In this document: in pieces, positions 1 to 12,553 of the stretch | Numbering within the stretch: the stretch's first letter is position 1 | Layout: every line of letters begins with the position of its first letter | Virus record (IMG/VR): IMGVR_UViG_3300042330_000854 | Span: 32,001 to 96,000 of that record | DNA length: 64,000 bases | DNA from: a virus | Reading direction: 5' to 3' (one strand) | The notes under the pieces: generated by a model | The model's input: only the letters and a program-made list of their open reading frames with translations | The model's database searches: none | Told to the model about the DNA's origin: nothing | Position numbers and translations under genes: made by a program

Positions 1-39
1 GAGGATGGATGACAATGGGTTCGATGCCCTCAGAGGTCG
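1..39 (+). tRNA. 3' part of a tRNA truncated by the window start (anticodon not visible)
   Basis: T-arm GGG-TTCGATG-CCC followed by an acceptor-like 3' strand. Confidence 0.6.
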
Positions 40-197
40 CGTTAATATAGTAAAATTATAAAGAATAGATTTAAATCTATTCTCACAATTCGGGGATAAA
101 AACAGCAGCCTCTTTTTGTAGTAACGATTTCCCTGAATTTTAATTTTGACAATTAAAGAAAATTATGATAAATTATACTTTATAGTATAATTCTTAT

Positions 198-268
198 GCT
201 CTGGTAGTTTAATGGTTTAAAACTTTTACTACTATCATATCTTTGGACCTGTAATTCAACAGTAGAAA
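198..268 (+). pseudogene. Two tRNA 5'-half fragments (GCTCTGGTAGTTTAATGGTTTAAAAC; GGACCTGTAATTCAACAGTAGAA)
   Basis: Acceptor 5' strand plus D-arm patterns with no matching anticodon or T arms downstream. Confidence 0.5.
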
Positions 269-330
269 TAATAAATATATAAATAAAATATTTCTTGTTA
301 ATTTAAAAGTAAAATTGACAAACATATATT

Positions 331-401
331 GCTTCCATGTTGTAATAGTAGCAAAAATTCCTCATAAGAATTTAGATTTGGGGCAGAACCAAATGGAAGT
401 A
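331..401 (+). tRNA. tRNA with CAT anticodon (Met or Ile2)
   Basis: Acceptor GCTTCCA/TGGAAGT, anticodon arm AATTC-CTCATAA-GAATT, T-stem TTTGG/CCAAA with loop GGCAGAA. Confidence 0.85.
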
Positions 402-426
402 CACGTTATACATAAACAAAAAAGAT

Positions 427-575
427 TTATACAAGTCTCTTTTTCATACCTCTTCTAAATCCATCTGGTATTGGATCAGTTTTTAAAATACGTATATTAA
501 TAATTTCATCAGTAATATACCAATATTTTGAATTAGTTTCAGATATTTTTTGTTTGGTTAATAATCCAAAATTAG
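427..575 (-). pseudogene. C-terminal remnant of a homing endonuclease
   Basis: Start-less frame LTKQKISETNSKYWYITDEIINIRILKTDPIPDGFRRGMKKRLV*, a typical HEG DNA-binding tail; in-frame stop upstream. Confidence 0.6.
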
Positions 576-604
576 ATTATTAAATTTAATTAGTAAAAAA
601 GTTC

Positions 605-633
605 TTGACAAAGAATATAAGTTGTAGTAATTT
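605..633 (+). promoter_or_regulatory. Sigma70-type promoter
   Basis: TTGACA-17-TAATTT; near-identical copy at 825-854. Confidence 0.7.
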
Positions 634-635
634 AA

Positions 636-811
636 TATATAAAAAATATACCTTATCCGGTAATAAGTTTTAAAGATAATTTTGATATTTTATAATCTTT
701 AAAAGTAGTTACATCAATGCGGTTTTAGTTAATAGTAAAAAAAACTAACAACTGCATTCGGCAAATACATTTGTATTTCGCGGTATTAAAAAATATCAAG
801 TTTTTTATATA
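636..811 (+). ncRNA. Structured ncRNA candidate with a 10-bp pseudoknot
   Basis: Terminal stem TATATAAAAAA/TTTTTTATATA, four internal hairpins, loop TTGATATTTT (682-691) complementary to AAAATATCAA (790-799); own promoter. Confidence 0.55.
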
Positions 812-856
812 CCTAAAATTCTTTTGACAAAAGAATATAAGTTGTAGTAAATTAAG

Positions 857-927
857 ATAAGAATTAAAACCTGAGGTCAGGCAACTTGGCAAAGTTGAAT
901 TAGGTTCGAGTCCTCTTTAATTCTTAT
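857..927 (+). ncRNA. tRNA-like RNA with a 12-bp terminal stem and a non-standard anticodon arm
   Basis: ATAAGAATTAAA/TTTAATTCTTAT, hairpins CCTGA/TCAGG and CAACTT-GGCA-AAGTTG, T-arm AGG-TTCGAGT-CCT. Confidence 0.6.
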
Positions 928-930
928 TAT

Positions 931-1001
931 GCGGGATTAGCATAAAATTAATGTGCTTGGCTTCCACCCAAGATAAATCGGAGAGTTACCGATATTCCGC
1001 T
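931..1001 (+). tRNA. tRNA-Gly(TCC)
   Basis: GCGGGAT/ATTCCGC, CTTGG-CTTCCAC-CCAAG, T-loop AGAGTTA, U73. Confidence 0.9.
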
Positions 1002-1062
1002 CTTTAAAATAATAGTTGGTTTGATGATTTATCCTAATTTAAAATCATCGTTTATTTGGTGT

Positions 1063-1158
1063 GACGATTAACCACTTTGCAAAAAAGTTCATCTGCTGAA
1101 GAATAAGATAATGATCTTGGTAGTGCTTGATTAGTAGCAATTATCAAAAATAATCGTC
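1063..1158 (+). ncRNA. Structured ncRNA, family B copy 1 (paralogue at 7857-7939)
   Basis: GACGATTA/TAATCGTC closing stem, GCAA-loop hairpin, GAATAA plus a stem enclosing a 27-nt segment 22/27 identical to the second copy. Confidence 0.65.
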
Positions 1159-1241
1159 CTCTGGTGGGGTGTATATTTATTAAAAATATTTATTTTTGTT
1201 GTCTTACATTGTGTTTTATGTAAAATTTGATAAATATATTT

Positions 1242-1292
1242 ATGAAATTATCCGATTGGGTAAGAAAAGAAACCAATGATCAATTTTTTTAA
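1242..1292 (+). pseudogene. Possible IS607-family TnpA N-terminal remnant
   Basis: MKLSDWVRKE resembles the MKLSxWAK start of IS607 serine transposases; stops after 16 codons. Confidence 0.35.
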
Positions 1293-1293
1293 T

Positions 1294-1620
1294 TGGGATT
1301 TGGTAGAGGATTATTCCATGACAACTCGCAAAGTTTAAGTGCGCCGTTAATCCCATTAAAGAAATTTCTTTAATAAAGACAAGTAATAAAAATATATATT
1401 ACTTGTAACGGTGTATAGCAATATCCCTGGTTGATTAGAACCAAAATCTAATCACCATTATGGTTAGTAAATAAACCACTCGTAAGAGTTTTTCGTAAGA
1501 AAAATAAGATTATGACGAATTTTCAACTCGTTAGTAACAATAATCCTAAAAAATATTTACTGGCGGATGGTAGAGTTTACTCTACGATCTAGGTTGCTTA
1601 GAACCTTAATCTAAGCACTT
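1294..1620 (+). ncRNA. Large multi-hairpin structured RNA candidate
   Basis: Long-range pairs AGGATTATT/AATAATCCT and GTGCGCCGTTA/TAACGGTGTAT, about 10 hairpins, two GTAA tetraloops, no ORF. Confidence 0.55.
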
Positions 1621-1714
1621 TTCTTACAGAAGATTATGAAAAATTGTAAAAAAACATATCCTCTGTAAAAAAATAGTTCTTGACAAAAAGAACTATAATT
1701 AATAATATATTTTT

Positions 1715-1800
1715 ATGCTTGGAGAGTAGAATACAGGGAAACTGGCCTTGGTGTTCCAAGGAACGCAAATCACAATTGGTTCAAATCCAATCACAAGCAT
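1715..1800 (+). ncRNA. tRNA-like ncRNA, family C copy 1 (paralogue at 15739-15823)
   Basis: Terminal stem ATGCTTG/CAAGCAT, conserved GGAGAGTAGAATAC, T-arm ATTGG-TTCAAAT-CCAAT, no 7-nt anticodon loop. Confidence 0.7.
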
Positions 1801-1807
1801 AATTTAT

Positions 1808-1890
1808 GGACACAGTGATATCAGTGGTCAATATCAACGTACTTTTAATACGTCGCGTAAGCTTTCTTGGTTCAATTCCAAGTGTGTCCT
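1808..1890 (+). tRNA. tRNA-Lys(TTT) with enlarged variable region
   Basis: GGACACA/TGTGTCC, ACGTA-CTTTTAA-TACGT, 12-nt variable region, T-arm CTTGG-TTCAATT-CCAAG. Confidence 0.88.
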
Positions 1891-1941
1891 CTACAAAAAA
1901 TACTTGACAATAAATAAATATAATAGTAAAGTAAGTTTTAT

Positions 1942-2015
1942 TGCGGAGTAGAGAAAAAGACATCTCGCAGGCTTCATGCGCCTGAAATAGTTGGAGCGTT
2001 ACCAACCTCTCGCAT
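1942..2015 (+). tRNA. tRNA-Met(CAT), bulged acceptor stem
   Basis: CAGGC-TTCATGC-GCCTG, D-stem GAGA/TCTC, T-loop AGCGTTA. Confidence 0.8.
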
Positions 2016-2021
2016 CTTTAA

Positions 2022-2111
2022 TGGCGCGTACTCTAATGGTAAGAGACAAGATTGTTAATCTTGCGTATTCCGATTTTCGGTATGTTGGTTCGATCCCAAC
2101 CGTGCTAGCCA
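2022..2111 (+). tRNA. tRNA-Asn(GTT) with long variable arm
   Basis: CAAGA-TTGTTAA-TCTTG, 20-nt variable arm, TTCGATC T-loop, G73 and encoded CCA. Confidence 0.9.
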
Positions 2112-2155
2112 ATATGTTAAAATAAAGTATATTCAATTACGATATATTTTAAATT

Positions 2156-2230
2156 ATCCTTGTGGTGTAGAAGTTAACATGTCAGTCTCCAAAACTGAAG
2201 TCCAGATTGCAAAATTCTGCAAGGATGCCA
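2156..2230 (+). tRNA. tRNA-Trp(CCA)
   Basis: ATCCTTG/CAAGGAT, TCAGT-CTCCAAA-ACTGA, T-loop TGCAAAA, encoded CCA. Confidence 0.9.
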
Positions 2231-2267
2231 TAAAAATTATTAATATAATTCAATATAGGAGATTAAT

Positions 2268-2384
2268 ATGACTGATAATACAAATGATTACAAAGATGAC
2301 ATTTCAGAAGAATATATTAATTTTTTAGAAAATAAATCATCCTATTTAGATGATGAAGAATGGGAATTAGTAGATTCAATGTAA
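2268..2384 (+). CDS. 38-aa very acidic peptide (not in ORF track)
   Basis: AGGAGA RBS, MTDNTNDYKDDISEEYINFLENKSSYLDDEEWELVDSM. Confidence 0.6.
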   Translation: MTDNTNDYKDDISEEYINFLENKSSYLDDEEWELVDSM

Positions 2385-2392
2385 TTTAGTTA

Positions 2393-2421
2393 TTGACATA
2401 ATTCAATAATTGAGTTATAAT
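2393..2421 (+). promoter_or_regulatory. Consensus sigma70 promoter driving the family A array
   Basis: TTGACA-17-TATAAT. Confidence 0.85.
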
Positions 2422-2428
2422 AATTTAA

Positions 2429-2782
2429 AGATTAGTTTCAGCAAAAATAATTATTTTTTTTTGATAAAAAACAAACACTAATCTGAAATATTTTAAAGTT
2501 TAAAGAATAGGTTCTGCAAAATTTCAAATTAGCAAAATCAGATTAATCCTCTGATACCGAGGTTTTATATTTCCTCATTAATATAAAATGTAAAAAACTA
2601 TTCTGTACTAATTTTCTTTTTAGTTGTTTAAAGAATGATTTCAGCAAAATTTAGCTTGGAAATGCAAAAAACATCATTCTGATTTATTTCCTTATATTAT
2701 ACTTTCTTATTTTATAGTTTAAAGGATGAGTTCCGCAAATTTTAAAATTTCAATTTTTGGTTTGAAAAACAAAATCATCCTG
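2429..2782 (+). ncRNA. Tandem array of four family A ncRNAs (2429-2485, 2504-2605, 2632-2681, 2723-2782)
   Basis: Each: TTTAA, 7-bp covarying stem, KTTCHGCAAA, variable hairpin(s), A-tract, stem complement, G. Confidence 0.8.
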
Positions 2783-2839
2783 ATTATCTCTTTATAGTTT
2801 AATAGTTTAAAATACTAGAGGGAACATTTTTAGTTTTAT

Positions 2840-2912
2840 TCCAGAATCTTCTAACTGATAAGAAACAAGAATTTGAGTCTTGGCAATGTAGGTTTAAATC
2901 CTACTTCTGGAT
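2840..2912 (+). tRNA. tRNA-Gln(TTG)
   Basis: TCCAGAA/TTCTGGA, CAAGA-ATTTGAG-TCTTG, T-arm GTAGG-TTTAAAT-CCTAC. Confidence 0.88.
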
Positions 2913-2964
2913 CACATAAAAAATAGTTGACATGTACCTAAATCCATAGTAAATTATTTTTATT

Positions 2965-3038
2965 GCCGTTTAAGCTAACTTTAGTAGAAGCGCTTGCATG
3001 AAGAGCAAGAGGACTTGGCGCGAAACCAAGAAGCGGCA
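2965..3038 (+). tRNA. tRNA-Phe(GAA)
   Basis: GCCGTTT/AAGCGGC, CTTGC-ATGAAGA-GCAAG, T-loop CGCGAAA. Confidence 0.88.
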
Positions 3039-3040
3039 CT

Positions 3041-3170
3041 TTAATCACAGCACAAATTAATATTTTGGGCAAATATTTATAAAATATTATATTAATTTGT
3101 TAAAACGCTCTTATTATCTAGGGCAATGTAGATGTAACAATGATGGTTAAAATCTTCTACCTGTGATTAA
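3041..3170 (+). ncRNA. Cloverleaf ncRNA, family D copy 1
   Basis: TTAATCACAG/CTGTGATTAA, three arms; last arm GTAGA-TGTAACAA..AAAATCT-TCTAC. Confidence 0.7.
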
Positions 3171-3210
3171 AACTCTTGACAAGAATGAAAATCAATGATA
3201 AATTATAATC

Positions 3211-3330
3211 ATTAATTACTACAAAATTCAATGTTTTCGATTTTAGCTTAAATATTGAATTGTTAATAGCGTGAAGCAAAACGCAATGCAGATGTAACAA
3301 AGCAAACAAAATCTTCTGCTAGTAATTGAT
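3211..3330 (+). ncRNA. Cloverleaf ncRNA, family D copy 2
   Basis: Same topology with compensatory changes (GCAGA/TCTGC, GCGT/ACGC); promoter TTGACA at 3176. Confidence 0.7.
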
Positions 3331-3392
3331 AATTCAAATCAGATAGTGATTTGAAAGTTTATGGTGATAGTTTTCACGCGATAAACAAATAT

Positions 3393-3423
3393 GCGGGCAT
3401 GGCGAAATAGCAGCCGCGACAAG
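3393..3423 (+). pseudogene. 5' fragment of a tRNA-Leu-like gene
   Basis: GCGGGCATGGCGAAATAGCAGCCGCGACAAG, then breaks off. Confidence 0.55.
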
Positions 3424-3450
3424 TAAAAAATATATTTAAAATTATATTTT

Positions 3451-3592
3451 GCTCACGTATCCCAATCGGAAGAGGAAAACGACTCAATCCTGAGAAAAAG
3501 ACAAGTATTATTTAATACTTTCGGTGCAATTCCGATAAGGAAAAAAACAGAAAATCGTTTAGTTGTCGGTTCGAATCCGACCGTGAGTACCA
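3451..3592 (+). tRNA. tRNA-Leu(CAA) with a 65-nt insertion in the anticodon loop
   Basis: GCTCACG/CGTGAGT-A-CCA, anticodon stem AACGA/TCGTT, CTCAA[3488-3552]AA, canonical T-arm. Confidence 0.85.
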
Positions 3593-3604
3593 TTAGAGGA
3601 AAAA

Positions 3605-4087
3605 ATGACAAATAATAATGAAAAAACAATAGTTTCATCAAAAGTTTATAAAGATAAAAAATCTAAAAGATTAATACAACATATAAGATATTCAGATGGA
3701 ACAAGAAAAACACGTTCTTATCCAAGAACAATTATGGAAGAATATTTAGGAAGACCATTATTAGACGACGAAACAGTAGATCATATTGATGGTAATGTAG
3801 AAAATAATGATATTAGTAATTTACAATTATTGTCACGAGAAGAAAATGCCCGTAAAGGCGCTTTGGGAAATAAACATACATTAGGTCGTAAACAATCTGA
3901 AGAACATAAACGAAATGGTGCTAAAAACGGCCAAGCAAAATTAACAAATGAACAAGTAATTTATTATAGAAAATCTTATGAAGATAAATCTCTTACTAAA
4001 AATCAAATAATAGAATTAACAAACATGAGTAGGCCCGCTATTGAAAATATTTTAAATTACAAATCATATGTAAATACTAAAAACTAA
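3605..4087 (+). CDS. HNH homing endonuclease
   Basis: IMEEYLGRPL..VDHIDGNVENNDISNLQLLSREEN; C-terminal AKLTxEQV DNA-binding tail. Confidence 0.9.
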   Translation: MTNNNEKTIVSSKVYKDKKSKRLIQHIRYSDGTRKTRSYPRTIMEEYLGRPLLDDETVDHIDGNVENNDISNLQLLSREENARKGALGNKHTLGRKQSEEHKRNGAKNGQAKLTNEQVIYYRKSYEDKSLTKNQIIELTNMSRPAIENILNYKSYVNTKN

Positions 4088-4223
4088 TTTAACCTAGGGC
4101 CAATGAAAGATTAATAATCTAAGGTTAAACATGCATTATGATAAATAATGTTGATCTGTGATCACGTAAGATGGTTTGGTGCGTAATGTAAATTACAAAG
4201 ATAATCTTTTCGGAGATTATTTT

Positions 4224-4295
4224 CGGGGTATAGCTCAGAAGTAGAGTGTTCGCTTTGGAAGCGAAAGGCCGAAATTGCAAAATTTTCTACCCCGA
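4224..4295 (+). tRNA. tRNA-Pro(TGG)
   Basis: CGGGGTA/TACCCCG, TTCGC-TTTGGAA-GCGAA, T-loop TGCAAAA. Confidence 0.9.
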
Positions 4296-4297
4296 CT

Positions 4298-4396
4298 TTA
4301 GCAGTATCATGATTTCATGATAAAGAAATTAACCAACTTTTAGCAACGTCCTTTGGTCCCATCTGGTAAGTGCTAATCTCTTTAAGAGTCTGCTAA
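4298..4396 (+). ncRNA. Structured RNA candidate
   Basis: TTAGCAG/CTGCTAA enclosing three stems (TATCATGA/TCATGATA, TTAGCA/TGCTAA, CTCTT/AAGAG). Confidence 0.45.
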
Positions 4397-4406
4397 TAAT
4401 TTTTTA

Positions 4407-4471
4407 TTCCTACGAGCAAACATAGTGACTGCAATCGGCTGTTAACCGATTATTACGTGGAACGTAGGAAG
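4407..4471 (+). pseudogene. tRNA-Asn(GTT) lacking a T-arm
   Basis: TTCCTAC/GTAGGAA-G and ATCGG-CTGTTAA-CCGAT intact; only 13 nt where variable loop and T-arm should be. Confidence 0.7.
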
Positions 4472-4513
4472 CTTTTATAAAGATTTAAAATGTATAATTA
4501 AAGGAATAATTTA

Positions 4514-4801
4514 ATGCAACTAGAAAAATGTTTACCGATTAAACAAAGAGATTGGAAAAATTGGCGGGCAAAAAATGAAAAACTTAATGCTGATATTGTT
4601 TTAAAAATTGGTATGAAAGTTCGTGATTGTTTTGGAACTGTTGGGATTATTCAACGTATTGAGGAAGGTTACGATATAGAAGAACATGGCACTATAGAAG
4701 TTTTTCGTTTAGATACAACTGACTATGGCCTTAATAATTGTGAACATTTTTGTTTTTATGATTGGCAAAAACATTTAAGAATTTTAGATATGAATGAATA
4801 A
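4514..4801 (+). CDS. Hypothetical protein
   Basis: ORF with AAGGA RBS. Confidence 0.7.
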   Translation: MQLEKCLPIKQRDWKNWRAKNEKLNADIVLKIGMKVRDCFGTVGIIQRIEEGYDIEEHGTIEVFRLDTTDYGLNNCEHFCFYDWQKHLRILDMNE

Positions 4802-4854
4802 TATTTGTTATTCTAACTTAAATACTCAATTAATAAAACTTCTAGGAAAATTAA

Positions 4855-5145
4855 ATGCTCGTATATTATCATAATACTAATCATGCTAGTTTATCTAGCC
4901 TAGTGCTATTAAGTATTCATAAAATAATACAAAAATATAGAGATAACCTTGATCATACGTATATTATTCTTAACAATAATACTTTTGAATTTATAACAAT
5001 AAATTGCCCAAGTGTATTTGGACTTACAAATTTATTAAAAGATCGAATATTTGTTCAAATAAAAATAAATTCTAATATAGAAGACAATGTTATAGAAATA
5101 CATTATGGAGAACATGTATTATTTGACACAATAACTATTCAATAA
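4855..5145 (+). CDS. Hypothetical protein
   Basis: ORF with AGGA RBS. Confidence 0.6.
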   Translation: MLVYYHNTNHASLSSLVLLSIHKIIQKYRDNLDHTYIILNNNTFEFITINCPSVFGLTNLLKDRIFVQIKINSNIEDNVIEIHYGEHVLFDTITIQ

Positions 5146-5178
5146 TTTTATAGTTGTCAATTTTATAAAGGTTTTATT

Positions 5179-5544
5179 ATGTATTATTATAAATTAAACG
5201 ATGAAATAAAAAGTTGTAAAAAATATTCTGAAATACCATTTGAACAATTAATTGTTGAAAATGAATCAACTCATTGGAAAGTAACTGCGGATGATGGTAC
5301 TTTTTATTATAATAAAAATAAAATTCATAGAAAAAATTTACCAGCAAGAATAGATGATTTATTTGTTTGTTATTATGAAAATAACCAACCACATAAAGAA
5401 GATGGTCCTGCATTAATTTTTAATAACGGTTATTATTCTTTTTGGTTATATGGAAAAAACTATCTTAATGTAAAAGATTGGTTGACCTATCATCCAAATC
5501 AAGATAAAGTATTTGAAGTTGAAATGTTATTGCGTTATAGTTAA
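5179..5544 (+). CDS. HRLTGPA-family protein (divergent, B-type tail)
   Basis: HRKNLPA, HKEDGPA, ends HPNQDKVFEVEMLLRYS. Confidence 0.8.
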   Translation: MYYYKLNDEIKSCKKYSEIPFEQLIVENESTHWKVTADDGTFYYNKNKIHRKNLPARIDDLFVCYYENNQPHKEDGPALIFNNGYYSFWLYGKNYLNVKDWLTYHPNQDKVFEVEMLLRYS

Positions 5545-5566
5545 AATTCATAGAAAGGAATTAAAA

Positions 5567-6070
5567 ATGTCATCAGATGAAATTAAAACAGTATTATTAA
5601 GTTATGCTCGTGCATTTAAAGATCATACTGAAAAGCAAATTAAACGAATTTCTAAGAAGAAAGTTGATCAAAATGTAATTCGTATTTTTAAATCAACTAT
5701 TACTGATGAAAAATGGCTAGTTATTTCATATGATGGCGACGATGAAGATTATTCTATGTTTCCTTTTGCTGAAACCGCAAACGAGTGGACAGCATATGTT
5801 CAACATTCACAAGACAATATTGATTCAGACGAAGAAGCTGTAGTAATTATGTTTGCACCTAATTGGTGGAAAGTAAAAGAAAGATATTTTTATGATCAAC
5901 ATTTAGAATTTGTTTTTGGTGATATTTTAAAAGCATTTATTCAAGATGAATATGAAGAAATACAAGAAAATACTTTTATATCCAATATTGGGAATTTAGA
6001 AGAAACTATTGCTGATTTAAAAAATCGCGGATTTAATGTTGAAATGTTTGATGAAAATACATTGCCTTAA
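5567..6070 (+). CDS. Acidic hypothetical protein
   Basis: ORF; start moved to the ATG after AAAGGA. Confidence 0.7.
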   Translation: MSSDEIKTVLLSYARAFKDHTEKQIKRISKKKVDQNVIRIFKSTITDEKWLVISYDGDDEDYSMFPFAETANEWTAYVQHSQDNIDSDEEAVVIMFAPNWWKVKERYFYDQHLEFVFGDILKAFIQDEYEEIQENTFISNIGNLEETIADLKNRGFNVEMFDENTLP

Positions 6071-6102
6071 AAATTTTCAAAATAAAAAAAGGATAATTAA
6101 TA

Positions 6103-6327
6103 ATGAATATTAAAGAAATGGTATCAGATAATAAAAAAGTTACATTTGAATATTTTCGTGATAATGAATTATGGTATAAAACAGAAAACGATTTCTTATT
6201 TCCTGTTCCAACTGATGATGTTGGTAATGCTGTTTTTATGAAAGAAGATAAAGCTTTATTGTTTATGCGATGGATTCGTAAACATATTCAAAAATTAGAA
6301 GATGCAAGAAAAAATCAAAATTTATGA
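6103..6327 (+). CDS. Small conserved-type phage protein
   Basis: LWYKTE..FLFPVP..D.GNA.F..EDKA..FMRWIRK pattern. Confidence 0.7.
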   Translation: MNIKEMVSDNKKVTFEYFRDNELWYKTENDFLFPVPTDDVGNAVFMKEDKALLFMRWIRKHIQKLEDARKNQNL

Positions 6328-7001
6328 TTAATTTATCATTAAATTCTTTTTCTAATATTGATATAGATCAATTATTAAAATTAATTAAAAATTATGCAGT
6401 TGATAATTTAGAGTTATCAACTGCACTTTCTTTAAAACATATTGATGGGTTTGAAAGATTTGCTTCTGTTGATTTTATTAATTTGTTTAATAAAAAATTA
6501 AAAGAAAATAATATAAAAACCTCAATACACGTATTTGGTGAATTAGCTAAACAATTAGGAAACGACAGAATAAATAATATTCCAAAAATCAATTGGGAGC
6601 TATTAGAACGAGTACAATTGAATAGATTTTCAGTTGATATTAATATTGCTTTAGAAAATCTTGAAAATTTAGGCTTTAATGGGCGGTTGATTTTACCAGC
6701 CAATAAAAAAGATTTGGTTATATCTGAATTGCCAATTGACGATAGAATTGATTGGTTATATGATTGTTCTCATGGTAAAGGAATTGAAATAAACTCATAT
6801 CCAATTGATCCTTTGATTAATCGACAAGGTAAAATTGGATTTGCTGGTGGAATTAATAAAAATAATATTTTAAAAATAAATAATAAAATTTTAACATTAG
6901 GTTTTAAAAATTATTATTTGGATATTGAAAGTGGCATACGTGAAAATGATCGAATATCATTTGAAAAAATAAAAAATATATTAGAAATAATAAACAAATA
7001 A
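6324..7001 (+). CDS. TrpF-like (phosphoribosylanthranilate isomerase-like) TIM-barrel protein
   Basis: VQLN, LYDCSHGKG, GFAGGI, LDIESGIR motifs. Confidence 0.7.
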   Translation: MINLSLNSFSNIDIDQLLKLIKNYAVDNLELSTALSLKHIDGFERFASVDFINLFNKKLKENNIKTSIHVFGELAKQLGNDRINNIPKINWELLERVQLNRFSVDINIALENLENLGFNGRLILPANKKDLVISELPIDDRIDWLYDCSHGKGIEINSYPIDPLINRQGKIGFAGGINKNNILKINNKILTLGFKNYYLDIESGIRENDRISFEKIKNILEIINK

Positions 7002-7055
7002 TTGTTGACATAAATTTTTATTATGTTATCCTTTTTTAAACAAAGGAGAAAAAAT

Positions 7056-7460
7056 ATGCTAGAAAATGTTTATTTAGAATTTAATGATAATTTTAGCGGT
7101 TATCATGAACCTGATTATAAGAAAAATAATGAATTATTAACTAAATTAGAAAATTATAAGTTAATTAATAATTTTAATTTATTTTCTAATTTAGTTAATT
7201 TACTTCCAAATTGTATTATATTTGTTTGGTCTGAAACACCTTCTGATGATTTTGATTTATTTGATGTACAATTTGACGAAGATGAATGGGAAACTTATGA
7301 AGATTATTTATTGGCGTGTAGCAACAATAAATATGCTTCTATTTTGTTTTATGTTAACCCAAATTGTTTTATGACATTTTGTGGCAGTAATGCTGATATT
7401 GCTTTCTCATTACTATTAAAACAATTGAAAAAAATTAATGAAATTAGATTTATTGACTAA
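7056..7460 (+). CDS. Hypothetical protein
   Basis: AGGAG RBS, upstream TTGACA promoter. Confidence 0.7.
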   Translation: MLENVYLEFNDNFSGYHEPDYKKNNELLTKLENYKLINNFNLFSNLVNLLPNCIIFVWSETPSDDFDLFDVQFDEDEWETYEDYLLACSNNKYASILFYVNPNCFMTFCGSNADIAFSLLLKQLKKINEIRFID

Positions 7461-7500
7461 TTAATTGTTGACATGATTAAGAAATTTTGGTATAAATAAT

Positions 7501-7606
7501 TTAAGTTAATTAGAAGTGGGCTTCCGTAGCGACGGCTATAGATTTTTGTTCGATTCAAAATTAAATCATGGATGATTAACGTGGTTCGATTCCACAATTA
7601 ACTTAA
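7501..7606 (+). ncRNA. tRNA-like RNA with two T-arms
   Basis: 11-bp terminal stem; TTTTG-TTCGATT-CAAAA and GTGG-TTCGATT-CCAC; promoter TTGACA-17-TATAAA at 7468. Confidence 0.7.
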
Positions 7607-7701
7607 TTTGGTCCTGTAGTTTACTCTTATCAGGACTACTTTGTTAAATAAAATGTTATGATTTGTCACATATTTTTAATATGCAAAAAGACAAATCCTT
7701 T

Positions 7702-7773
7702 GGGCCTAAAGTGTTGTTGGGGGCATAACAGATTTGCATTCTGTAGGGCGGGTTTCGAATACCCGTGGGTCCA
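7702..7773 (+). tRNA. tRNA-Ala(TGC)
   Basis: G3:U70, ACAGA-TTTGCAT-TCTGT, TTCGAAT T-loop. Confidence 0.9.
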
Positions 7774-7847
7774 CTATCGTAATATGGCGAGGGTTACAAT
7801 AAAATCGTTGACAAACGTTATCATTTATAGTAAAAAAGAATAAGGAC

Positions 7848-7988
7848 TGCCCATCGTTCTCCTAGCAATAGGTTTGGTAAATACCGAATAAAATTATGAT
7901 CTTAGTGGCGTTAGATTAGTAGCAATAATTAAAATAGAAGAGAGGCATGTATGGTGAGCTATTGGAAGAGATAGACTAGGTGATGGCA
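7848..7988 (+). ncRNA. Structured ncRNA, family B copy 2
   Basis: CCTA-GCAA-TAGG, GAATAA-AATTAT-[27 nt]-ATAATT-AAAA; outer CCATC/GATGG; promoter at 7808. Confidence 0.65.
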
Positions 7989-8041
7989 TTACCAAATAAT
8001 TATGCTAAAAGTTTTGATAGTTTCTTTAAAAAACTATCTAT

Positions 8042-8114
8042 GGTAGTTGTGGCAGAAAAGTTATGCGACAGATTGTGAGTCTGTAATAAGCGAGAGCGTT
8101 ACTCGTCAACTACC
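8042..8114 (+). tRNA. tRNA-His(GTG)
   Basis: G-1:C73, ACAGA-TTGTGAG-TCTGT, T-loop AGCGTTA. Confidence 0.9.
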
Positions 8115-8137
8115 CGAAATTTATTGGGGATTTATCA

Positions 8138-8422
8138 ATGCTAATTTGGTCTAATGAAAGCCGTGAACTTTTTAAAAATGTTGTAATTGAAAATAATATT
8201 GGTACTTTATCTTTACCAAGCGAAAACCCATTCAATATTGAATGGTCTAACCAATGTAAAATATTAGATAATAATCAAAGTACACCAGCTAATGAATATA
8301 AACAATATAATTTACAATTAAATAATGGTAAAATAGCTACTGGTGTTTTTATAAAACAAATTGAATTTTTTGGTGATAAAGATAAGAAAATTTTTACATT
8401 TGTAATTGATACTATTTCTTAA
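8138..8422 (+). CDS. Hypothetical protein
   Basis: ORF with GGGGA RBS. Confidence 0.65.
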   Translation: MLIWSNESRELFKNVVIENNIGTLSLPSENPFNIEWSNQCKILDNNQSTPANEYKQYNLQLNNGKIATGVFIKQIEFFGDKDKKIFTFVIDTIS

Positions 8423-8449
8423 TAAAAATATATTATAGAAAGAAAAACA

Positions 8450-8608
8450 ATGTTTCCATTATTTTTATTACTATTAAATTTTATATTGTTTAGTGGAATA
8501 ATTTATATGATGATTAAAATAGGTTTTTGGTTGTCTGTTTTTTGTATTTTACTTAGTTCTATAGTATGGATACCAGTTATTGTACTTCTTTACATGCATC
8601 GCAAATAA
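8450..8608 (+). CDS. Small membrane protein (not in ORF track)
   Basis: MFPLFLLLLNFILFSG..., hydrophobic 52 aa. Confidence 0.5.
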   Translation: MFPLFLLLLNFILFSGIIYMMIKIGFWLSVFCILLSSIVWIPVIVLLYMHRK

Positions 8609-8613
8609 TCTAA

Positions 8614-8853
8614 ATGTTAAGTGATATTAAATTTTCACATCAATTAGAACAAAGTTTACATTTTATTGTTGAAAATTTAGAAGATAAATCTTCAAATAAT
8701 ATTATGATAAATTTTAATATTTTCTTTAAATTGTTAATTAATTGTAAAGATGTAAAAAATGTGTATTTGAATTTTATTGATAATATTTTTGTTATAAATT
8801 ATACATATAATAAACAAAATTTTTGTATTAACTTTTTCTATAAAACAACTTAA
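8614..8853 (+). CDS. Hypothetical protein
   Basis: ORF in + strand run. Confidence 0.55.
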   Translation: MLSDIKFSHQLEQSLHFIVENLEDKSSNNIMINFNIFFKLLINCKDVKNVYLNFIDNIFVINYTYNKQNFCINFFYKTT

Positions 8854-8865
8854 AAAGGAAATAAA

Positions 8866-9600
8866 ATGAGTTTAGCTTTATTTGATACAGAGGGGTTGCG
8901 TTTTCGACGCCAAACTGAATTACGATTACGTGAACAAATTAAAAATGAATTAGTAGAAAATATTCAACAAATTTTATTAGATATGAATCAAATGTGGCGT
9001 TTTGAAGAAGTTGAAACGCCATTAATTATGCCTAAAGAATTAATGAATGCAAGTTATGATCTTGATGATATTTTTGTTTTACAAAATAAAATAGCCAATA
9101 AAGATTATGCTTTACGTGCAGAAACAACATTAGGTTCTTATTTAATGGCTGTTGAATTACTTAAAACAACTTCAATTCGTGCTCCTTTGTGTGTTTATAC
9201 ACATGGGCCAAGTTTTCGAGTTGAAAATTCAGATGGGGCAACTGCTGCTAAATTACGGTTTAATCAATTTTATCAATTGGAATTTCAATTAATTTATGGT
9301 GCTGATACCAAAGCGCCGATTATTGAAACAATGATTGAAAAATTACCTACGGTAGTAAATAAAATTCTTAATAAATCTGTTAGAACAATTGAAAGTGATC
9401 GTTTGCCTTCTTATTCGATAGAAACAATTGATATTGAAGTTGAATGGTATTCTGAAACAGCAAAAAAGATGGAATTTAAAGAAATTGCCAGTATGAGTTT
9501 ACGCAAAGATTTTCCTTTAATTCCAGGCCATAAACCGTATCGTGTTTTTGAAATTGCTTTTGGAACTGATCGATTATTGGCTATGAAAAATGGCATTTGA
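8866..9600 (+). CDS. Stand-alone class II aminoacyl-tRNA synthetase catalytic core (alpha2 GlyRS-like), no anticodon-binding domain
   Basis: Motif 1 EVETP, LRAETT, motif 2 SFRVE..LRFNQFYQLEFQ, motif 3 EIAFGTDRLL; 244 aa. Confidence 0.85.
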   Translation: MSLALFDTEGLRFRRQTELRLREQIKNELVENIQQILLDMNQMWRFEEVETPLIMPKELMNASYDLDDIFVLQNKIANKDYALRAETTLGSYLMAVELLKTTSIRAPLCVYTHGPSFRVENSDGATAAKLRFNQFYQLEFQLIYGADTKAPIIETMIEKLPTVVNKILNKSVRTIESDRLPSYSIETIDIEVEWYSETAKKMEFKEIASMSLRKDFPLIPGHKPYRVFEIAFGTDRLLAMKNGI

Positions 9601-9880
9601 TTTACATGAATTGAATCAATTAAAATTTGATTTAAAAAATCTAAATGTAAATATTAAAATATGTTCTCCTGATAATAAATTGGGAGAACATTTTATTGAT
9701 TTTTATATTGATGATAAAAGAATTTTAACTATTGTTTATAAATTAAAATTTGGTTTCGGATTTTTTAGTGAAGATGCAATAATGTTTGAAGGCCCAAGTG
9801 AAATTTTAAATTATGAAAATGCATTAATAAAAATTCGAGAATTTTTAGCTGATAAAAATTTGTTAAATAAATCTACATAG
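9590..9880 (+). CDS. Hypothetical protein
   Basis: Overlaps the aaRS stop. Confidence 0.65.
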   Translation: MAFDLHELNQLKFDLKNLNVNIKICSPDNKLGEHFIDFYIDDKRILTIVYKLKFGFGFFSEDAIMFEGPSEILNYENALIKIREFLADKNLLNKST

Positions 9881-9889
9881 TTTCAGAGT

Positions 9890-10325
9890 TAGAAAAAGGG
9901 AATCGCTCTTCCCAAAAACATTTTCAGAATACAGGACTGAGGAAATGAGTTAGAAACAAACGAACGGTTACGATTAACCGGAATAGAAAAAATTCTATTC
10001 ACTAATCCGTCTATCGAGTAGAATTGGTAGGCGAAAAGATTCTAGCAATGTTTGTTCATTAACAACTAGAAGTTATCATAATTTTAATACATGAGAATTA
10101 TGATAATCCCGTTTTGAGAAATTTAAAATCAATTTCTGAAGATTTATCACGAGTAGGTACAGCAAAACCGCCTGCGCTTTATTTTATAATGTAGTGAGTC
10201 ATGTATGAAATTTACGCCGATGCTTTTATACGTAAGGTGCAAAATTTGATCTTCCCTATGTCATTATTATTTTATTAGTTTTGGCATGGGGAAGAATGAA
10301 ATATGTCCTCAGCAATTGCCGTATG
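9890..10325 (+). ncRNA. About 430-nt structured RNA candidate
   Basis: ORF-free, relatively GC-rich, about 10 hairpins, long-range CTGAGGA (9937)/TCCTCAG (10306). Confidence 0.6.
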
Positions 10326-10472
10326 GGCTTTAGAAATAAAGAAAAAAATCAAGTAAAAAACAAAAAAAATAAAATTTTTCTTCTAATAAGATTTATAGCA
10401 GAAATTCTTTTTTTATTGAAAATTTTTTTACATGATATTATATTAACTTTTTAATGAAAGAAAAAATAAAAA

Positions 10473-10676
10473 ATGACAAAACCTTATACTTGTGAAATCA
10501 CTCAACAAACTTTTGAAAATGTTGAAGCCGCTAATTTTTATTTTACTCAACAAAATAAAATGGTTTCTATTCTTCCAGTTGGTTCAATAGTAACTATGGA
10601 ATTTAGACCTAATCGAGTTAGAATTTATCATGATTTAGAAGATAAAAATATCATCATAGATATTACTTTTGGTTAA
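10473..10676 (+). CDS. Serine protease inhibitor, potato inhibitor I (I13)/I78 fold
   Basis: ILPVGSIVTMEFRPNRVRIY vs barley CI-2 [20 protein letters not shown]; C-terminal G. Confidence 0.8.
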   Translation: MTKPYTCEITQQTFENVEAANFYFTQQNKMVSILPVGSIVTMEFRPNRVRIYHDLEDKNIIIDITFG

Positions 10677-10731
10677 AATTAATTGATAAAAACATGTTGA
10701 CAAGCTAATAAAAACATAGTAAGTTATATAC

Positions 10732-10831
10732 ATAAGCATGGGATATGAAAAGAAGGTTCGAGTCCTTCGCCGCAACGTTGACAACAACGGGGTGGATGTT
10801 GTTCGCCGGAAAGAAGCTTTTCTGTGCTTAT
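10732..10831 (+). ncRNA. Circularly permuted tRNA mimic (YrlA-like order T, acceptor-like, D)
   Basis: Terminal stem ATAAGCAT/GTGCTTAT, T-arm GAAGG-TTCGAGT-CCTTC first, capped stem, then TTC-GCCGGAAA-GAA; promoter at 10697. Confidence 0.6.
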
Positions 10832-10833
10832 AT

Positions 10834-10906
10834 CACGCATTCGAATAATCAGTTAATTCAACAGACTTTCAATCTGTAAACGAGAGGGCAGAACTCTCAT
10901 GCGTGA
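10834..10906 (+). tRNA. tRNA-Glu(TTC)
   Basis: CACGCAT/ATGCGTG, ACAGA-CTTTCAA-TCTGT, T-loop GGCAGAA. Confidence 0.88.
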
Positions 10907-10930
10907 CTTTTTAAAATATAGGAATAAAAT

Positions 10931-11107
10931 ATGGAAAATGTATTAATTCTTCTGTTATTACCAATTATTGTAATATTAATTGGGTTAATTTTATTTGTTT
11001 ATATTTACTTACCATTATCTATTCCATTTTTACTACCAAGTTTAACTGTAATTATAATTTCTATTCTAATTTTTATTGTTATACATTATATTGGAAAAAT
11101 AATTTAA
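10931..11107 (+). CDS. Small membrane protein (not in ORF track)
   Basis: AGGA RBS, hydrophobic MENVLILLLLPIIVILIG... Confidence 0.5.
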   Translation: MENVLILLLLPIIVILIGLILFVYIYLPLSIPFLLPSLTVIIISILIFIVIHYIGKII

Positions 11108-11191
11108 AAATTAAATAAAATGCTTTAATTAATGTAGTTGTGATAGATAAATAATGTACAAATTTATGCCGATTTAATAAGAGAAAATAAT

Positions 11192-11341
11192 ATGAATAAT
11201 AATTTTAATTTAGAACATGTTGGAAGTTCTTTTGAAGATTGGCTTGAATACGAAGGATTTGCTGAAGAAGTTTATGCAAGTGCTTTAAAAGAATTACAAT
11301 TTGAACAAATTGAAAAAACATTAAAGAAATTACAAAAATAA
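11192..11341 (+). CDS. 49-aa peptide resembling the N-terminus of XRE/HigA-type antitoxins (not in ORF track)
   Basis: HVGSSFEDWLEYEGFAEEVYASALK matches the HIGSSFDDFLxEEG..EEV..AIK pattern; no HTH follows. Confidence 0.65.
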   Translation: MNNNFNLEHVGSSFEDWLEYEGFAEEVYASALKELQFEQIEKTLKKLQK

Positions 11342-11355
11342 TTAGAAAGTTTTTT

Positions 11356-11892
11356 ATGATATTTAAAATAGAAAAAAATGTTAATTTAAATAATAGTTTT
11401 ATTCCAAGAAAATACGAAGAACTATATAAAATTGTAGATGGTATGAAAATAGGAGATAATATAAAGTTATCTTCTACAATGTTTAATAAAAATAATTTGA
11501 GAAAATATCAAATTACAATTCAAAATTGTCTTAAAAATAAATATCCAGAAAAAAAGTTTATAACTTCTATTATCAACGACGATATTTATTTATGGTATGC
11601 TAATAAAGAAAACACCAACGACATTAAAAAATTAATTCATCAGGTTAAAAAACAAATTTATTTAAATAAAAAAAATTCTAATTGGTTTATTGTTAATGAT
11701 ATTTTAATAGAAAAAGATATACTTATTGATGATATTGAACATAAAATATTACAAATCGGCGATAGTTTTATGGTTGACACTGAATTAAAAAGACAATGTT
11801 GTCTTGATAAGTTAAGACGTATGTACCCATCATATAAATTTAAAAGTAAAAAAATAACAATTAATGAGTATAGAATTTGGAGAATATCATGA
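11356..11892 (+). CDS. Hypothetical protein, two copies of a KIEKN..IGD(S)..R(I/V)WR domain
   Basis: Internal repeat shared with the next ORF. Confidence 0.7.
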   Translation: MIFKIEKNVNLNNSFIPRKYEELYKIVDGMKIGDNIKLSSTMFNKNNLRKYQITIQNCLKNKYPEKKFITSIINDDIYLWYANKENTNDIKKLIHQVKKQIYLNKKNSNWFIVNDILIEKDILIDDIEHKILQIGDSFMVDTELKRQCCLDKLRRMYPSYKFKSKKITINEYRIWRIS

Positions 11893-12179
11893 AAATTGAT
11901 AAAAATATTCCATTACTAAATAACAATCAAAATACACCTAGTAAATATATTTTACCAGAAATGGAAATCGGTGATAGTATTTTGTTTACTGTTCCAGAAA
12001 ATGAAAGGTTTAATGCGTTTAAACAAAGAACTATTGCTGGATTAAAACATCATAATCCAGACTATGTTTTGTCTTTAAGAAATGAAGGTAAAAATAGTTT
12101 CAGAGTTTGGCGCGTAGCAGAAAAACCTAAAAATGTATTTGTTGTTATTAATAAAGAAATGATAGAAAAAATTAATTAA
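11889..12179 (+). CDS. Hypothetical protein, one KIDKNIP..MEIGDS..FRVWR domain (putative DNA-binding)
   Basis: Motif similarity to the preceding ORF; ATGA overlap. Confidence 0.7.
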   Translation: MKIDKNIPLLNNNQNTPSKYILPEMEIGDSILFTVPENERFNAFKQRTIAGLKHHNPDYVLSLRNEGKNSFRVWRVAEKPKNVFVVINKEMIEKIN

Positions 12180-12329
12180 ATGTTTGAAACAAAAATGCGA
12201 TTATAAAGATTTATACTGAATTAAATCATTATTTATAATTCCCATTGTTTCACTTATTTTATGCTATATTCAGACATTATTTAGTTTAAGGTTGTAAGAT
12301 AATGGGTATATAAGTCAGCAACCTTTTTA

Positions 12330-12401: not shown

Positions 12402-12503
12402 CAATTAAATTTTATAATACCATAAGTCTGTTTAAGTGATTATGACGATTAACAAATAGTTAATTCATCTATGTACAAAATCCTTTTCAGCAGGTTATTT
12501 TAA

Positions 12504-12553
12504 AGAATGATTTCCGCAAAATTTAGCTTGGATATGCAAAAAACATCATTCTG
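12504..12553 (+). ncRNA. Family A ncRNA, copy 5
   Basis: Differs from 2632-2681 at two positions. Confidence 0.8.

What the first reader, a model, noticed from the sequence alone, without database searches (positions are those of the whole stretch)
2429..2782. Array of small RNAs with a constant scaffold displaying anticodon-loop mimics (family A; 5th copy at 12504-12553)
Seen: four tandem units behind a perfect TTGACA-17-TATAAT promoter, plus one distant copy. Each has a 7-bp terminal stem that covaries (AGATTAG/CTAATCT, AGAATAG/CTATTCT, AGAATGA/TCATTCT, AGGATGA/TCATCCT), a fixed KTTCHGCAAA strand, an A-tract and a variable inner hairpin. The inner loops read like tRNA anticodon loops: TTTTGAT and TTTTGGT (Gln), TTGGAAA (identical to the loop of the tRNA-Ser at 14676), and CTGATAC plus CTCATTA (Ile and Met) in the double-hairpin unit. 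Some stems or loop sizes are imperfect. No D/T arms or CCA, so these are not tRNAs. Inference: a protein-bound handle carrying a swappable anticodon stem-loop, acting as decoys or sensors for host anticodon nucleases (PrrC, RloC, VapC, PARIS AriB types). The layout resembles Y RNAs tethered by Ro60/TROVE proteins, but no such gene is in this window.
Basis: partly seen in the sequence, partly recalled or inferred. Interest (0 to 1): 0.88.

Follow-up and report, generated by a model that had tools for sequence, protein, structure and literature searches.

The report
Phage Y-like RNAs with CAGCAA handle
The five small RNA genes are real members of a widespread phage RNA family, absent from Rfam and from the papers I could search, whose constant "handle" travels with a Ro60-shaped RNA-binding protein that this phage also encodes, so they are most likely that protein's partner RNAs, a new branch of the Ro60/Y-RNA particle.

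Summary
Four tandem units (2429-2782) sit behind the only perfect sigma-70 promoter in 16.5 kb, and a fifth lies at 12504-12553. All share a covarying 7-bp closing stem, an unpaired 3' G, an NUWCNGCAA strand and an A-rich linker.

The family is widespread in phage tRNA arrays. In relatives the variable middle holds anticodon-like hairpins, whole tRNAs or YrlA-like permuted tRNA bodies.

The same contig encodes a DUF2828/DUF7788 protein about 19 kb upstream whose model matches Ro60 over its full length (Z 14-22). A sixth, cargo-less handle sits 12 nt before its start codon.

In 80 independently collected DUF2828 loci my model finds 48 handles, all on the gene's strand. It finds none in 822 kb of control phage DNA.

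The anticodon-mimic reading is only partly supported. It is enriched family-wide (8/80 versus 0.8 expected), but only one local unit fits. The nuclease-decoy function is untested.

The handle also matches Dictyostelium Class I RNAs, below Rfam's threshold. Earlier notes of this scan found the same family on other DNA. I found it in neither Rfam nor the papers I searched.

The parts
2393..2421 (+). sigma-70-type promoter TTGACA-17-TATAAT driving the four-unit array; predicted start at about 2428-2430, the first base of unit 1
   Evidence: the only 12/12 match in window 1-16500. Sequence.
2429..2485 (+). Unit 1. Stem AGATTAG/CTAATCT plus G, strand UUUCAGCAA, A/U-only cargo that can form a 5-bp/7-nt loop (UUUUGAU).
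   Evidence: CM R1 53.7 bits. Rfam RF01414 28 bits, below threshold.
2504..2605 (+). Unit 2. Stem AGAATAG/CTATTCT plus G, strand GUUCUGCAA, long cargo with two hairpins.
   Evidence: fold z -2.9. It was not in the training set, yet R1 finds it at 32.9 bits, E 2e-4.
2632..2681 (+). Unit 3. Stem AGAATGA/TCATTCT plus G, strand UUUCAGCAA, cargo AGCUUGGAAAUGC (GGA type).
   Evidence: R1 58.4 bits. The GGA-type cargo recurs in other phages.
2723..2782 (+). Unit 4. Stem AGGATGA/TCATCCT plus G, strand GUUCCGCAA, cargo a 6-bp hairpin with an 8-nt loop.
   Evidence: R1 62 bits.
12504..12553 (+). Unit 5. A 95% identical copy of unit 3, about 100 nt after tRNA-Met (12330-12402).
   Evidence: R1 54.7 bits.
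2840..2912 (+). tRNA-Gln(UUG)-like gene immediately after the array, with no terminator between them; probably co-transcribed.
   Evidence: Partial Rfam tRNA match. Cloverleaf read from the sequence. No terminator-like site in 2429-2912.
2156..2227 (+). tRNA upstream of the array; shows that the array lies inside a tRNA cluster.
   Evidence: Rfam tRNA 46.9 bits.

Best explanation
The five units are small non-coding RNAs of a widespread phage family that I call CAGCAA-handle RNAs.

Anatomy:
- The 5' and 3' ends pair into a 7-bp stem whose first, second and fifth pairs are nearly fixed (A-U, G-C, U-A).
- The stem is followed by an unpaired G.
- Next to its 5' half lies the single-stranded N-U-W-C-N-G-C-A-A strand.
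- An A-rich linker precedes its 3' half.

This constant part is most likely the docking site for the phage's own Ro60-shaped ring protein. That protein has a DUF2828 helical-repeat ring plus a DUF7788 vWA domain with a complete MIDAS motif. It is 460 aa and is encoded at G000:C1:12095-13477 on the minus strand, about 19 kb upstream of the window. The variable middle is cargo held on the protein.

By analogy with Ro60/Rsr and Y RNAs, the RNAs would gate the ring or tether it to other factors. Published precedents include host PNPase, as shown for Thermus phage phiLo Ro60. In relatives the tRNA-like cargo suggests tRNA-handling enzymes.

The sixth, cargo-less copy ends 2 nt before the Shine-Dalgarno sequence of the protein's own gene. 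It probably lets the protein repress its own translation.

Shown here: a real, covarying RNA family; its residence in tRNA arrays; strand-specific linkage to DUF2828 genes; the Ro60 fold of the protein.

Inferred: physical binding, autoregulation, and what the particle does during infection.
For: (1) Structure. All five local stems are perfect, with compensatory changes. On 42 distinct homologues gathered around DUF2828 genes, 99% of cells pair and all 7 pairs change on both sides. The covariation score is 0.75 against 0.18 for shuffles (0/500) and at most 0.14 for slid registers.

(2) Family. The pattern scan plus the stem filter gave 42 distinct units in IMG/VR phages spanning 17-46% GC. CM R1 finds unit 2, which was left out of its training set.

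(3) Context. Homologues lie on the tRNA strand, a few nt from flanking tRNAs. One unit encloses a whole tRNA (L135).

(4) Protein link.
- PF11443 is present in the window's own contig and in 10 of 17 RNA-positive records, including both complete genomes. It is present in 2 of 13 records that had no R1 match over their whole length at E <= 0.001 or, for one, an R1 match found only later.
- In 80 loci collected through the protein alone, R1 gives 48 hits in 32 loci, 48/48 on the gene's strand. It gives 0 hits in 91 control loci covering 822 kb.
- A looser descriptor gives 111 units on the gene strand against 20 on the other strand. 45 loci have a unit within 600 nt downstream of the gene, and 16 have one within 200 nt upstream.

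(5) Own genome. A sixth handle (stem AGATTAA/TTAATCT, strand UUACAGCAA) lies 12 nt before the P0001 start codon and away from any tRNA.

(6) Fold. The AF2 model has pLDDT 79 and pTM 0.71.
- The Foldseek top 10 are all Ro60/TROVE chains (E 2e-10 to 1e-6, TM 0.48-0.61).
- VIA-align gives Z 21.6 to phage phiLo Ro60 (393 residues aligned), 16.7 to Xenopus Ro60 and 14.3 to Deinococcus Rsr. The best non-Ro60 rows cover only the vWA domain, at Z <= 11.8.
- Invariant Arg/Lys in the ring and the DxSxS...T...D MIDAS residues are conserved.

(7) Long-cargo relatives next to DUF2828 genes give sub-threshold YrlA matches (38 bits, E 2e-5).

(8) Precedent. Ro60 with Y RNAs in bacteria and phages (PMC4201824); phage phiLo Ro60 binds Yrl RNAs and host PNPase (PMC12135203).
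Against: - No binding or expression data exist; the link is genomic only.
- In this phage the array lies 21 kb from the protein gene and on the other strand.
- Pfam TROVE is absent everywhere. The profile search against PDB sequences gives TROVE only at E 0.14, so the kinship to Ro60 rests on a predicted fold.
- The handle does not resemble the canonical Ro60-binding bulged helix, and no unit matches Rfam Y_RNA or YrlA.
- Two DUF2828-positive, nearly complete phages gave no R1 hit, and one RNA-positive fragment lacks the gene.
- DUF2828 genes often sit near tRNA arrays, so part of the co-location could be indirect.
Confidence: 0.7

Rival explanations
1. One reading: free-standing decoys or sensors. 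The scaffold displays anticodon stem-loops that soak up or report host anticodon nucleases (PrrC, RloC, VapC, PARIS AriB).
For: - Canonical anticodon-arm geometry (stem of at least 5 bp, 7-nt loop, U at position 2, purine at position 6) occurs in 8 of 80 short cargos against 0.8 expected from shuffles.
- Examples: CUUGUAA, CUGUUAA (both pass the test). CUUUUAA and AUCCAAA were read by eye on 4-bp stems and RNAfold did not predict them.
- Some relatives carry whole tRNAs.
- Phage tRNAs are known to counter tRNA-cleaving defences (PMC11464382).
- This could coexist with Ro60-like tethering.
Against: - About 85-90% of short cargos are not anticodon-like.
- In this window only unit 1 fits, and only with an all-A:U stem that is not the minimum-energy fold.
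- Units 3 and 5 carry a different conserved GGA-type motif.
- The observed 'anticodons' show no bias towards known nuclease targets.
- It does not explain the cargo-less copy in the 5' UTR of the protein gene.
Confidence: 0.12
2. Elements of tRNA-array biogenesis, independent of DUF2828. They would be acceptor-stem-like minihelices or decayed tRNAs acting as processing punctuation (RNase E/P/Z sites) or as spacers in polycistronic tRNA transcripts.
For: - They always lie inside tRNA arrays, a few nt from the neighbouring tRNAs.
- They have a 7-bp stem plus one unpaired base, like an acceptor stem with its discriminator.
- The flanks are A/U-rich.
- Some units contain T-arms or whole tRNAs.
Against: - Decay would not keep an invariant xUxCxGCAA strand and fixed stem pairs across phages of 17-46% GC.
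- Handles also occur away from tRNAs, directly before or after DUF2828 genes. All 48 hits are on the gene's strand and there are none in the controls.
- The window's own sixth copy is 3.3 kb from the nearest tRNA.
Confidence: 0.1
3. Purely regulatory operator copies. The handle would be only the translational operator of the DUF2828 gene, and the dispersed copies would be sponges that titrate the protein, with the cargo irrelevant.
For: Cargo-less handles abut the ribosome-binding site of the gene in this phage and in several others (L231, L283, L299, L302, L305).
Against: - Cargo shows conserved, recurring modules: YrlA-like tRNA bodies, anticodon arms, the GGA type and a 'GAACCUUUCUGG...' module.
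- Array units are driven by a consensus promoter of their own.
Confidence: 0.06

Closest known systems
Ro60 (Rsr/TROVE) with Y RNAs, especially bacterial and phage YrlA (Rfam RF02553; Chen et al. 2014, PMC4201824) and Thermus phage phiLo Ro60 with Yrl1/Yrl2 (PMC12135203)
   Same: - A ring-plus-vWA protein of the Ro60 fold.
- Small RNAs whose ends pair into a stem, with a variable, often tRNA-like module.
- RNA genes clustered beside the protein gene, on its strand.
- Relatives with T-arm, closed acceptor hairpin and D-arm cargo score sub-threshold on the YrlA model.
   Different: - The protein is not detected by Pfam TROVE; it belongs to DUF2828/DUF7788 and is shorter, at 460 aa.
- The handle is a plain 7-bp stem plus a CAGCAA strand, not the bulged Ro60-binding helix.
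- The window's units lack any tRNA-like domain.
- Many copies are dispersed in tRNA arrays rather than placed next to the gene.
Dictyostelium Class I RNAs (Rfam RF01414; Kjellin et al. 2021, PMC7919456)
   Same: - About 50-65 nt long.
- A short covarying terminal stem.
- A conserved motif next to the 5' half. The D. discoideum model consensus reads CUUACAGCAA; the copy before the DUF2828 gene here reads UUACAGCAA.
- The RNAs start AAG and end CUG(U), and the rest is variable.
- The Rfam model's 10 best hits in 26 phage records all fall on handle RNAs (22-36 bits, E <= 0.006). The records without a known handle give nothing below E 0.018.
   Different: - Every score is below Rfam's gathering score of 41.5.
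- Class I RNAs are eukaryotic, have a DUSE promoter and were reported as unique to Dictyostelia.
- Their known direct binder is the RRM protein Rnp1A.
- I did not test whether dictyostelids carry a DUF2828 protein.
- Homology versus convergence remains open.
Phage T4 tRNA-cluster stable RNAs (species 1 and 2, rnaC/rnaD); from my own knowledge, not checked here
   Same: Small stable non-tRNA RNAs of unknown function, encoded inside a phage tRNA cluster and presumably processed with the tRNAs.
   Different: No sequence or structure comparison was made. T4 is not known to carry a DUF2828 protein or a CAGCAA handle.

Membership tests
   All five window units and the sixth copy. Family logo and pair counts.
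   U, C, G, C and A are invariant in 42 of 42 distinct homologues; the last A is in 39 of 42.
   P0001 in the same contig: PF11443 at 101 bits and PF25043 at 185 bits.
Y RNA / YrlA (Rfam RF00019, RF02553) | Reaches the Rfam gathering score | tested here: not met
   No Y_RNA or YrlA match on the window units even at E <= 10. Relatives reach 38 bits against a gathering score of 69.
Y RNA / YrlA (Rfam RF00019, RF02553) | Partner protein is a TROVE-domain Ro60 orthologue | tested here: not met
   PF05731 is absent from the window's own contig and from 30 other records. The partner candidate has the Ro60 fold only.
Y RNA / YrlA (Rfam RF00019, RF02553) | tRNA-like domain (T-arm, closed acceptor-like hairpin, D-arm) | tested here: not met
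   Absent from the window's units. Present in some relatives.
Y RNA / YrlA (Rfam RF00019, RF02553) | RNA is bound by the Ro60-type protein | not testable with these tools
   Needs EMSA, RIP or a solved structure.
Dictyostelium Class I RNA (RF01414) | Short terminal stem, conserved motif next to its 5' half, AAG start and CUGU end, length about 60 nt | tested here: met
   Sequence, set against the description in PMC7919456.
Dictyostelium Class I RNA (RF01414) | Reaches the Rfam gathering score (41.5 bits) | tested here: not met
   Unit 1 scores 28 bits, the 5' UTR copy 22.6 bits, and the best relative 35.6 bits.
Dictyostelium Class I RNA (RF01414) | DUSE promoter about 60 nt upstream; dictyostelid genome | tested here: not met
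   A phage contig with a sigma-70-type promoter.
tRNA | Cloverleaf with D and T arms, detected by ARAGORN or Rfam RF00005 | tested here: not met
   No hit on any unit.
Ro60/TROVE protein (for P0001) | Helical-repeat ring plus C-terminal vWA domain with MIDAS, matching solved Ro60 structures over the full length | tested here: met
   Z 21.6 with 393 residues aligned to 9KOP, 16.7 to 1YVR, 14.3 to 2NVO. MIDAS residues are invariant.

The most novel reading that the evidence does not exclude
The phage CAGCAA-handle RNAs and the Class I RNAs of social amoebae are the same ancient RNA class. On this reading both are partners of DUF2828-type Ro60-like proteins found in phages, bacteria and eukaryotes. 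That would make a second Ro/Y-RNA lineage. [quoted passage not shown]
Probability: 0.3. Interest if true: 0.9.

Novelty: new variant of a known kind. Interest (0 to 1): 0.75.

Why it matters
Ro60/Y-RNA particles are known in animals, some bacteria and a few phages. Their RNA partners have been found only beside recognisable TROVE genes.

Here a very large and well-conserved protein family of unknown function gains a fold and a specific RNA partner. The family is DUF2828/DUF7788, with at least 7,959 relatives in one capped search. I found the RNA family in neither Rfam nor the papers I searched.

The cargo is modular: anticodon arms, whole tRNAs, permuted tRNA bodies and other motifs. It sits in the tRNA arrays of large phages. 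This points to a phage-run system for handling tRNAs or other structured RNAs during infection.

The match to Dictyostelium Class I RNAs gives a directly testable hypothesis for abundant eukaryotic RNAs whose function is still poorly understood.

Tried and rejected
- The first collection scan used a pattern with one N too many and returned only chance matches in coding DNA. The corrected scan is.
- Megablast of 4 kb around the array against GenBank phages found nothing.
- The tail sheath found no close relative in IMG/VR. In GenBank it is only about 49% identical to Agrobacterium phage Atu_ph07.
- Pfam TROVE found nothing in 31 records.
- Sequence searches of P0001 and its profile against PDB gave nothing significant. 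TROVE chains appear only at E 0.14.
- Ideas rejected on reading the sequence:
  - a C/D-box k-turn, because the 'AUGA...CUGA' letters are fully paired and units 1 and 2 lack UGA;
  - a hammerhead core, because CUGA varies to CUGU;
  - a T-loop reading of UUCNGCA;
  - pairing between the UUC of the handle and the GGA of the cargo, which is not kept in UUACAGCAA members.
- ORFs next to P0001 show no RNA-repair genes.
- The 2011 paper listing the four Class I RNA-associated proteins is not held.
- I did not test whether a dictyostelid encodes DUF2828.

Full report
**What is there.**
The window comes from a 108-kb IMG/VR contig of a large AT-rich myophage, about 26% GC and estimated 33% complete. 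It carries RIIA, a T4-type baseplate wedge, and a tail sheath about 49% identical to that of Agrobacterium phage Atu_ph07.

The first 16 kb of the window are a tRNA cluster dense with TTGACA-type promoters. Four tandem units lie at 2429-2485, 2504-2605, 2632-2681 and 2723-2782. A fifth lies at 12504-12553, about 100 nt after tRNA-Met.

Each unit has:
- a perfect 7-bp terminal stem,
- an unpaired G after the stem,
- the strand K-UUC-H-GCAA(A) after the 5' half,
- an A-rich run before the 3' half.

Among the local copies, four stem positions change on both sides.

The promoter at 2393-2421 is the only 12/12 consensus match in 16.5 kb. It puts the start at the first base of unit 1. No terminator-like site separates the array from the tRNA-Gln-like gene at 2840-2912.

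**The inner hairpins.**
The minimum-energy folds keep the terminal stem, but the inner hairpins are weak. Unit 1 can form a 5-bp all-A:U stem with the loop UUUUGAU. Units 3 and 5 have an 8-nt loop on 2 bp. Unit 4 has an 8-nt loop. TTGGAAA is indeed the anticodon loop of the tRNA-Ser at 14676, but in unit 3 it is not presented as a 7-nt loop.

**A family.**
A corrected pattern scan of IMG/VR, filtered for a complementary 7-mer followed by G, gave 42 distinct units including the window's five, in phages of very different base composition.

A covariance model (R1) built from 22 short members finds unit 2, which was left out of the training set, at E 2e-4. It finds nothing else in the window.

In every locus the units lie on the tRNA strand, a few nt from flanking tRNAs. 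The cargo varies:
- Textbook anticodon arms, such as UUCAA-CUUGUAA-UUGAA.
- A whole tRNA: L135 4099-4207 encloses a tRNA that scores 50 bits on Rfam.
- T-arm, closed acceptor hairpin and D-arm in the YrlA order.
- A recurring 'YUNGGAWA' type, to which units 3 and 5 belong.
- A 'GAACCUUUCUGGAGGGG...' module.

Counts:

| Feature | Observed | Expected from shuffles |
|---|---|---|
| Strict anticodon geometry in short cargos | 8 of 80 | 0.8 |
| GGA-type motif in short cargos | 13 of 80 | 1.7 |
| T-loop-like GUUCRANNC in long cargos | 24 of 79 | not computed |

The descriptor used for these counts is loose and admits some chance hits. One search gives its background as about 15-20 per strand per 800 kb.

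**The protein partner.**
Notes of earlier agents in this scan named a 'CAGCAA handle' linked to a DUF2828 Ro60-like protein on other DNA. I treated this as a lead and tested it.

Pfam TROVE is absent from the window's own contig and from 30 other records.

Pfam DUF2828 (PF11443) is present in:
- the window's own contig;
- 10 of 17 RNA-positive records, including both complete genomes;
- 2 of the 13 records taken as controls.

None of these 13 controls had a handle in the stretch first fetched. Over the whole records, R1 then found nothing at E <= 0.001 in 12 of them and one match in G030.

The local gene is G000:C1:12095-13477 on the minus strand, about 19 kb before the window. It encodes P0001, 460 aa, with DUF2828 followed by DUF7788 (vWA-like).

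A sixth handle lies 12 nt before its start codon. It has the stem AGATTAA/TTAATCT and the strand UUACAGCAA, with almost no cargo. It ends 2 nt before the Shine-Dalgarno sequence and lies 3.3 kb from the nearest tRNA.

I then collected 80 loci through the protein alone.
- R1 finds 48 handles in 32 of them, all 48 on the gene's strand.
- It finds none in 91 unrelated phage loci covering 822 kb.
- On these independently gathered sequences all seven stem pairs show double changes and 99% of cells pair.
- A looser descriptor gives 111 units on the gene strand against 20 on the other strand.
- 45 loci have a unit within 600 nt after the gene, and 16 have one within 200 nt before it. Several of the latter are cargo-less copies abutting the ribosome-binding site.

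**The fold.**
An AlphaFold2 model of P0001 from a 23-sequence alignment has pLDDT 79 and pTM 0.71. It shows a helical-repeat N-terminal part and a vWA domain.

The Foldseek top ten are all Ro60/TROVE structures over the full length.

VIA-align scores:

| Chain | Z |
|---|---|
| Thermus phage phiLo Ro60 (9KOP; 393 residues aligned, rmsd 3.8) | 21.6 |
| Thermus phage phiLo Ro60 (9L5Y) | 19.8 |
| Xenopus Ro60 (1YVR) | 16.7 |
| Deinococcus Rsr (2NVO) | 14.3 |
| Best non-Ro60 rows (vWA domain only) | <= 11.8 |

The MIDAS residues and many Arg/Lys of the ring are invariant. The family is very large and well conserved: at least 7,959 relatives in a capped search, many about 60% identical and on contigs of 200-390 kb. 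I found no paper that gives DUF2828 a function.

**How it most likely works.**
The handle is probably the docking site of this Ro60-like ring, and the middle is cargo.

Published Ro60 systems give the model. Y RNAs bind the outer rim through their terminal stem. They gate the central cavity and tether the ring to effectors such as PNPase. The bacterial and phage YrlA RNAs carry a tRNA-like module (PMC4201824). Phage phiLo Ro60 binds two phage Y-like RNAs and host PNPase (PMC12135203).

Relatives with long cargo next to DUF2828 genes even give sub-threshold YrlA matches. The cargo-less copy over the gene's ribosome-binding site suggests translational autoregulation.

Binding, autoregulation and the biological target are inferences. 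However, most cargos are not anticodon-like, and those of this window barely are.

**Class I RNAs.**
The only Rfam match to the array is Dicty_Class_I_RNA: unit 1 at 28 bits, E 0.004, against a gathering score of 41.5.

Run over 26 phage records, that model's ten best hits (22-36 bits, E <= 0.006) all coincide with R1 handles. They include unit 1 and the 5' UTR copy. The 13 records taken as controls give nothing below E 0.018.

The published description of Class I RNAs fits the phage handle closely: a 6-bp covarying terminal stem, an 11-nt motif next to its 5' half, an AAG start, a CUGU end, a length of about 60 nt and a variable remainder. That paper reports the class as unique to Dictyostelia (PMC7919456). 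All scores are below Rfam's threshold, and I could not test whether dictyostelids have the protein. Shared ancestry is a hypothesis, not a result.

**Verdict.**
This is a real, conserved RNA family, one more instance of something this scan has met repeatedly on other DNA. It is best read as Y-like partner RNAs of a Ro60-fold DUF2828 protein. It is a new variant of a known kind, found in neither Rfam nor the papers I could search.

The anticodon-mimic claim is only weakly supported for this window. The nuclease-decoy role is untested.

Noticed in passing
window 56-87: A hairpin with the same stem as unit 2 (AGAATAG/CTATTCT) and the 5' flank UAUAA, but no CAGCAA strand; R1 scores 16 bits. It may be a decayed handle or a plain hairpin following a tRNA end.
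   Followed up: no
window 2790-2811: A repeat of the 'TATAGTTTAA(A)' lead-in that precedes units 3 and 4 (repeat family D3), with no unit behind it. It may be the remnant of a further unit or a shared processing signal.
   Followed up: no
window 2156-2227, 2840-2912 and 4224-4295: tRNAs with non-canonical T-loops: UUGCAAA twice and UUUAAAU. The tRNA-Gln(UUG)-like gene at 2840-2912 is missed by ARAGORN and by Rfam at gathering score.
   Followed up: partly
window 8866-9600: A 244-aa ORF with weak class II aminoacyl-tRNA-synthetase core matches (tRNA-synt_2b E 8e-6, HisRS-like E 0.003, both below the cut-offs), inside the tRNA cluster.
   Followed up: no
window 3605-4087 and 14863-15582: An HNH_3 homing-endonuclease ORF and an ORF with a NUMOD3 motif, both embedded among the tRNA genes.
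   Followed up: no
L135 4099-4207 and 5163-5237 (same sequence in L136): This phage carries a tRNA with a UCA anticodon enclosed in a handle unit and a tRNA with a CUA anticodon next to another unit. These are suppressor-type tRNAs, hinting at stop-codon recoding.
   Followed up: no
L226 1259-1377, L227 3127-3236, L228 4270-4374, L229 3589-3701: A conserved cargo module ('GAACCUUUCUGGAGGGGAAAGCAAAAACUCGCC') recurs inside handle units upstream of DUF2828 genes in four different phages. It is a second structured domain of unknown kind.
   Followed up: no
G020 and G024 (records behind L137 and L169): Two nearly complete phages have a DUF2828 gene but no R1 hit at E <= 0.001. They may carry a diverged handle that the narrow model misses.
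   Followed up: partly
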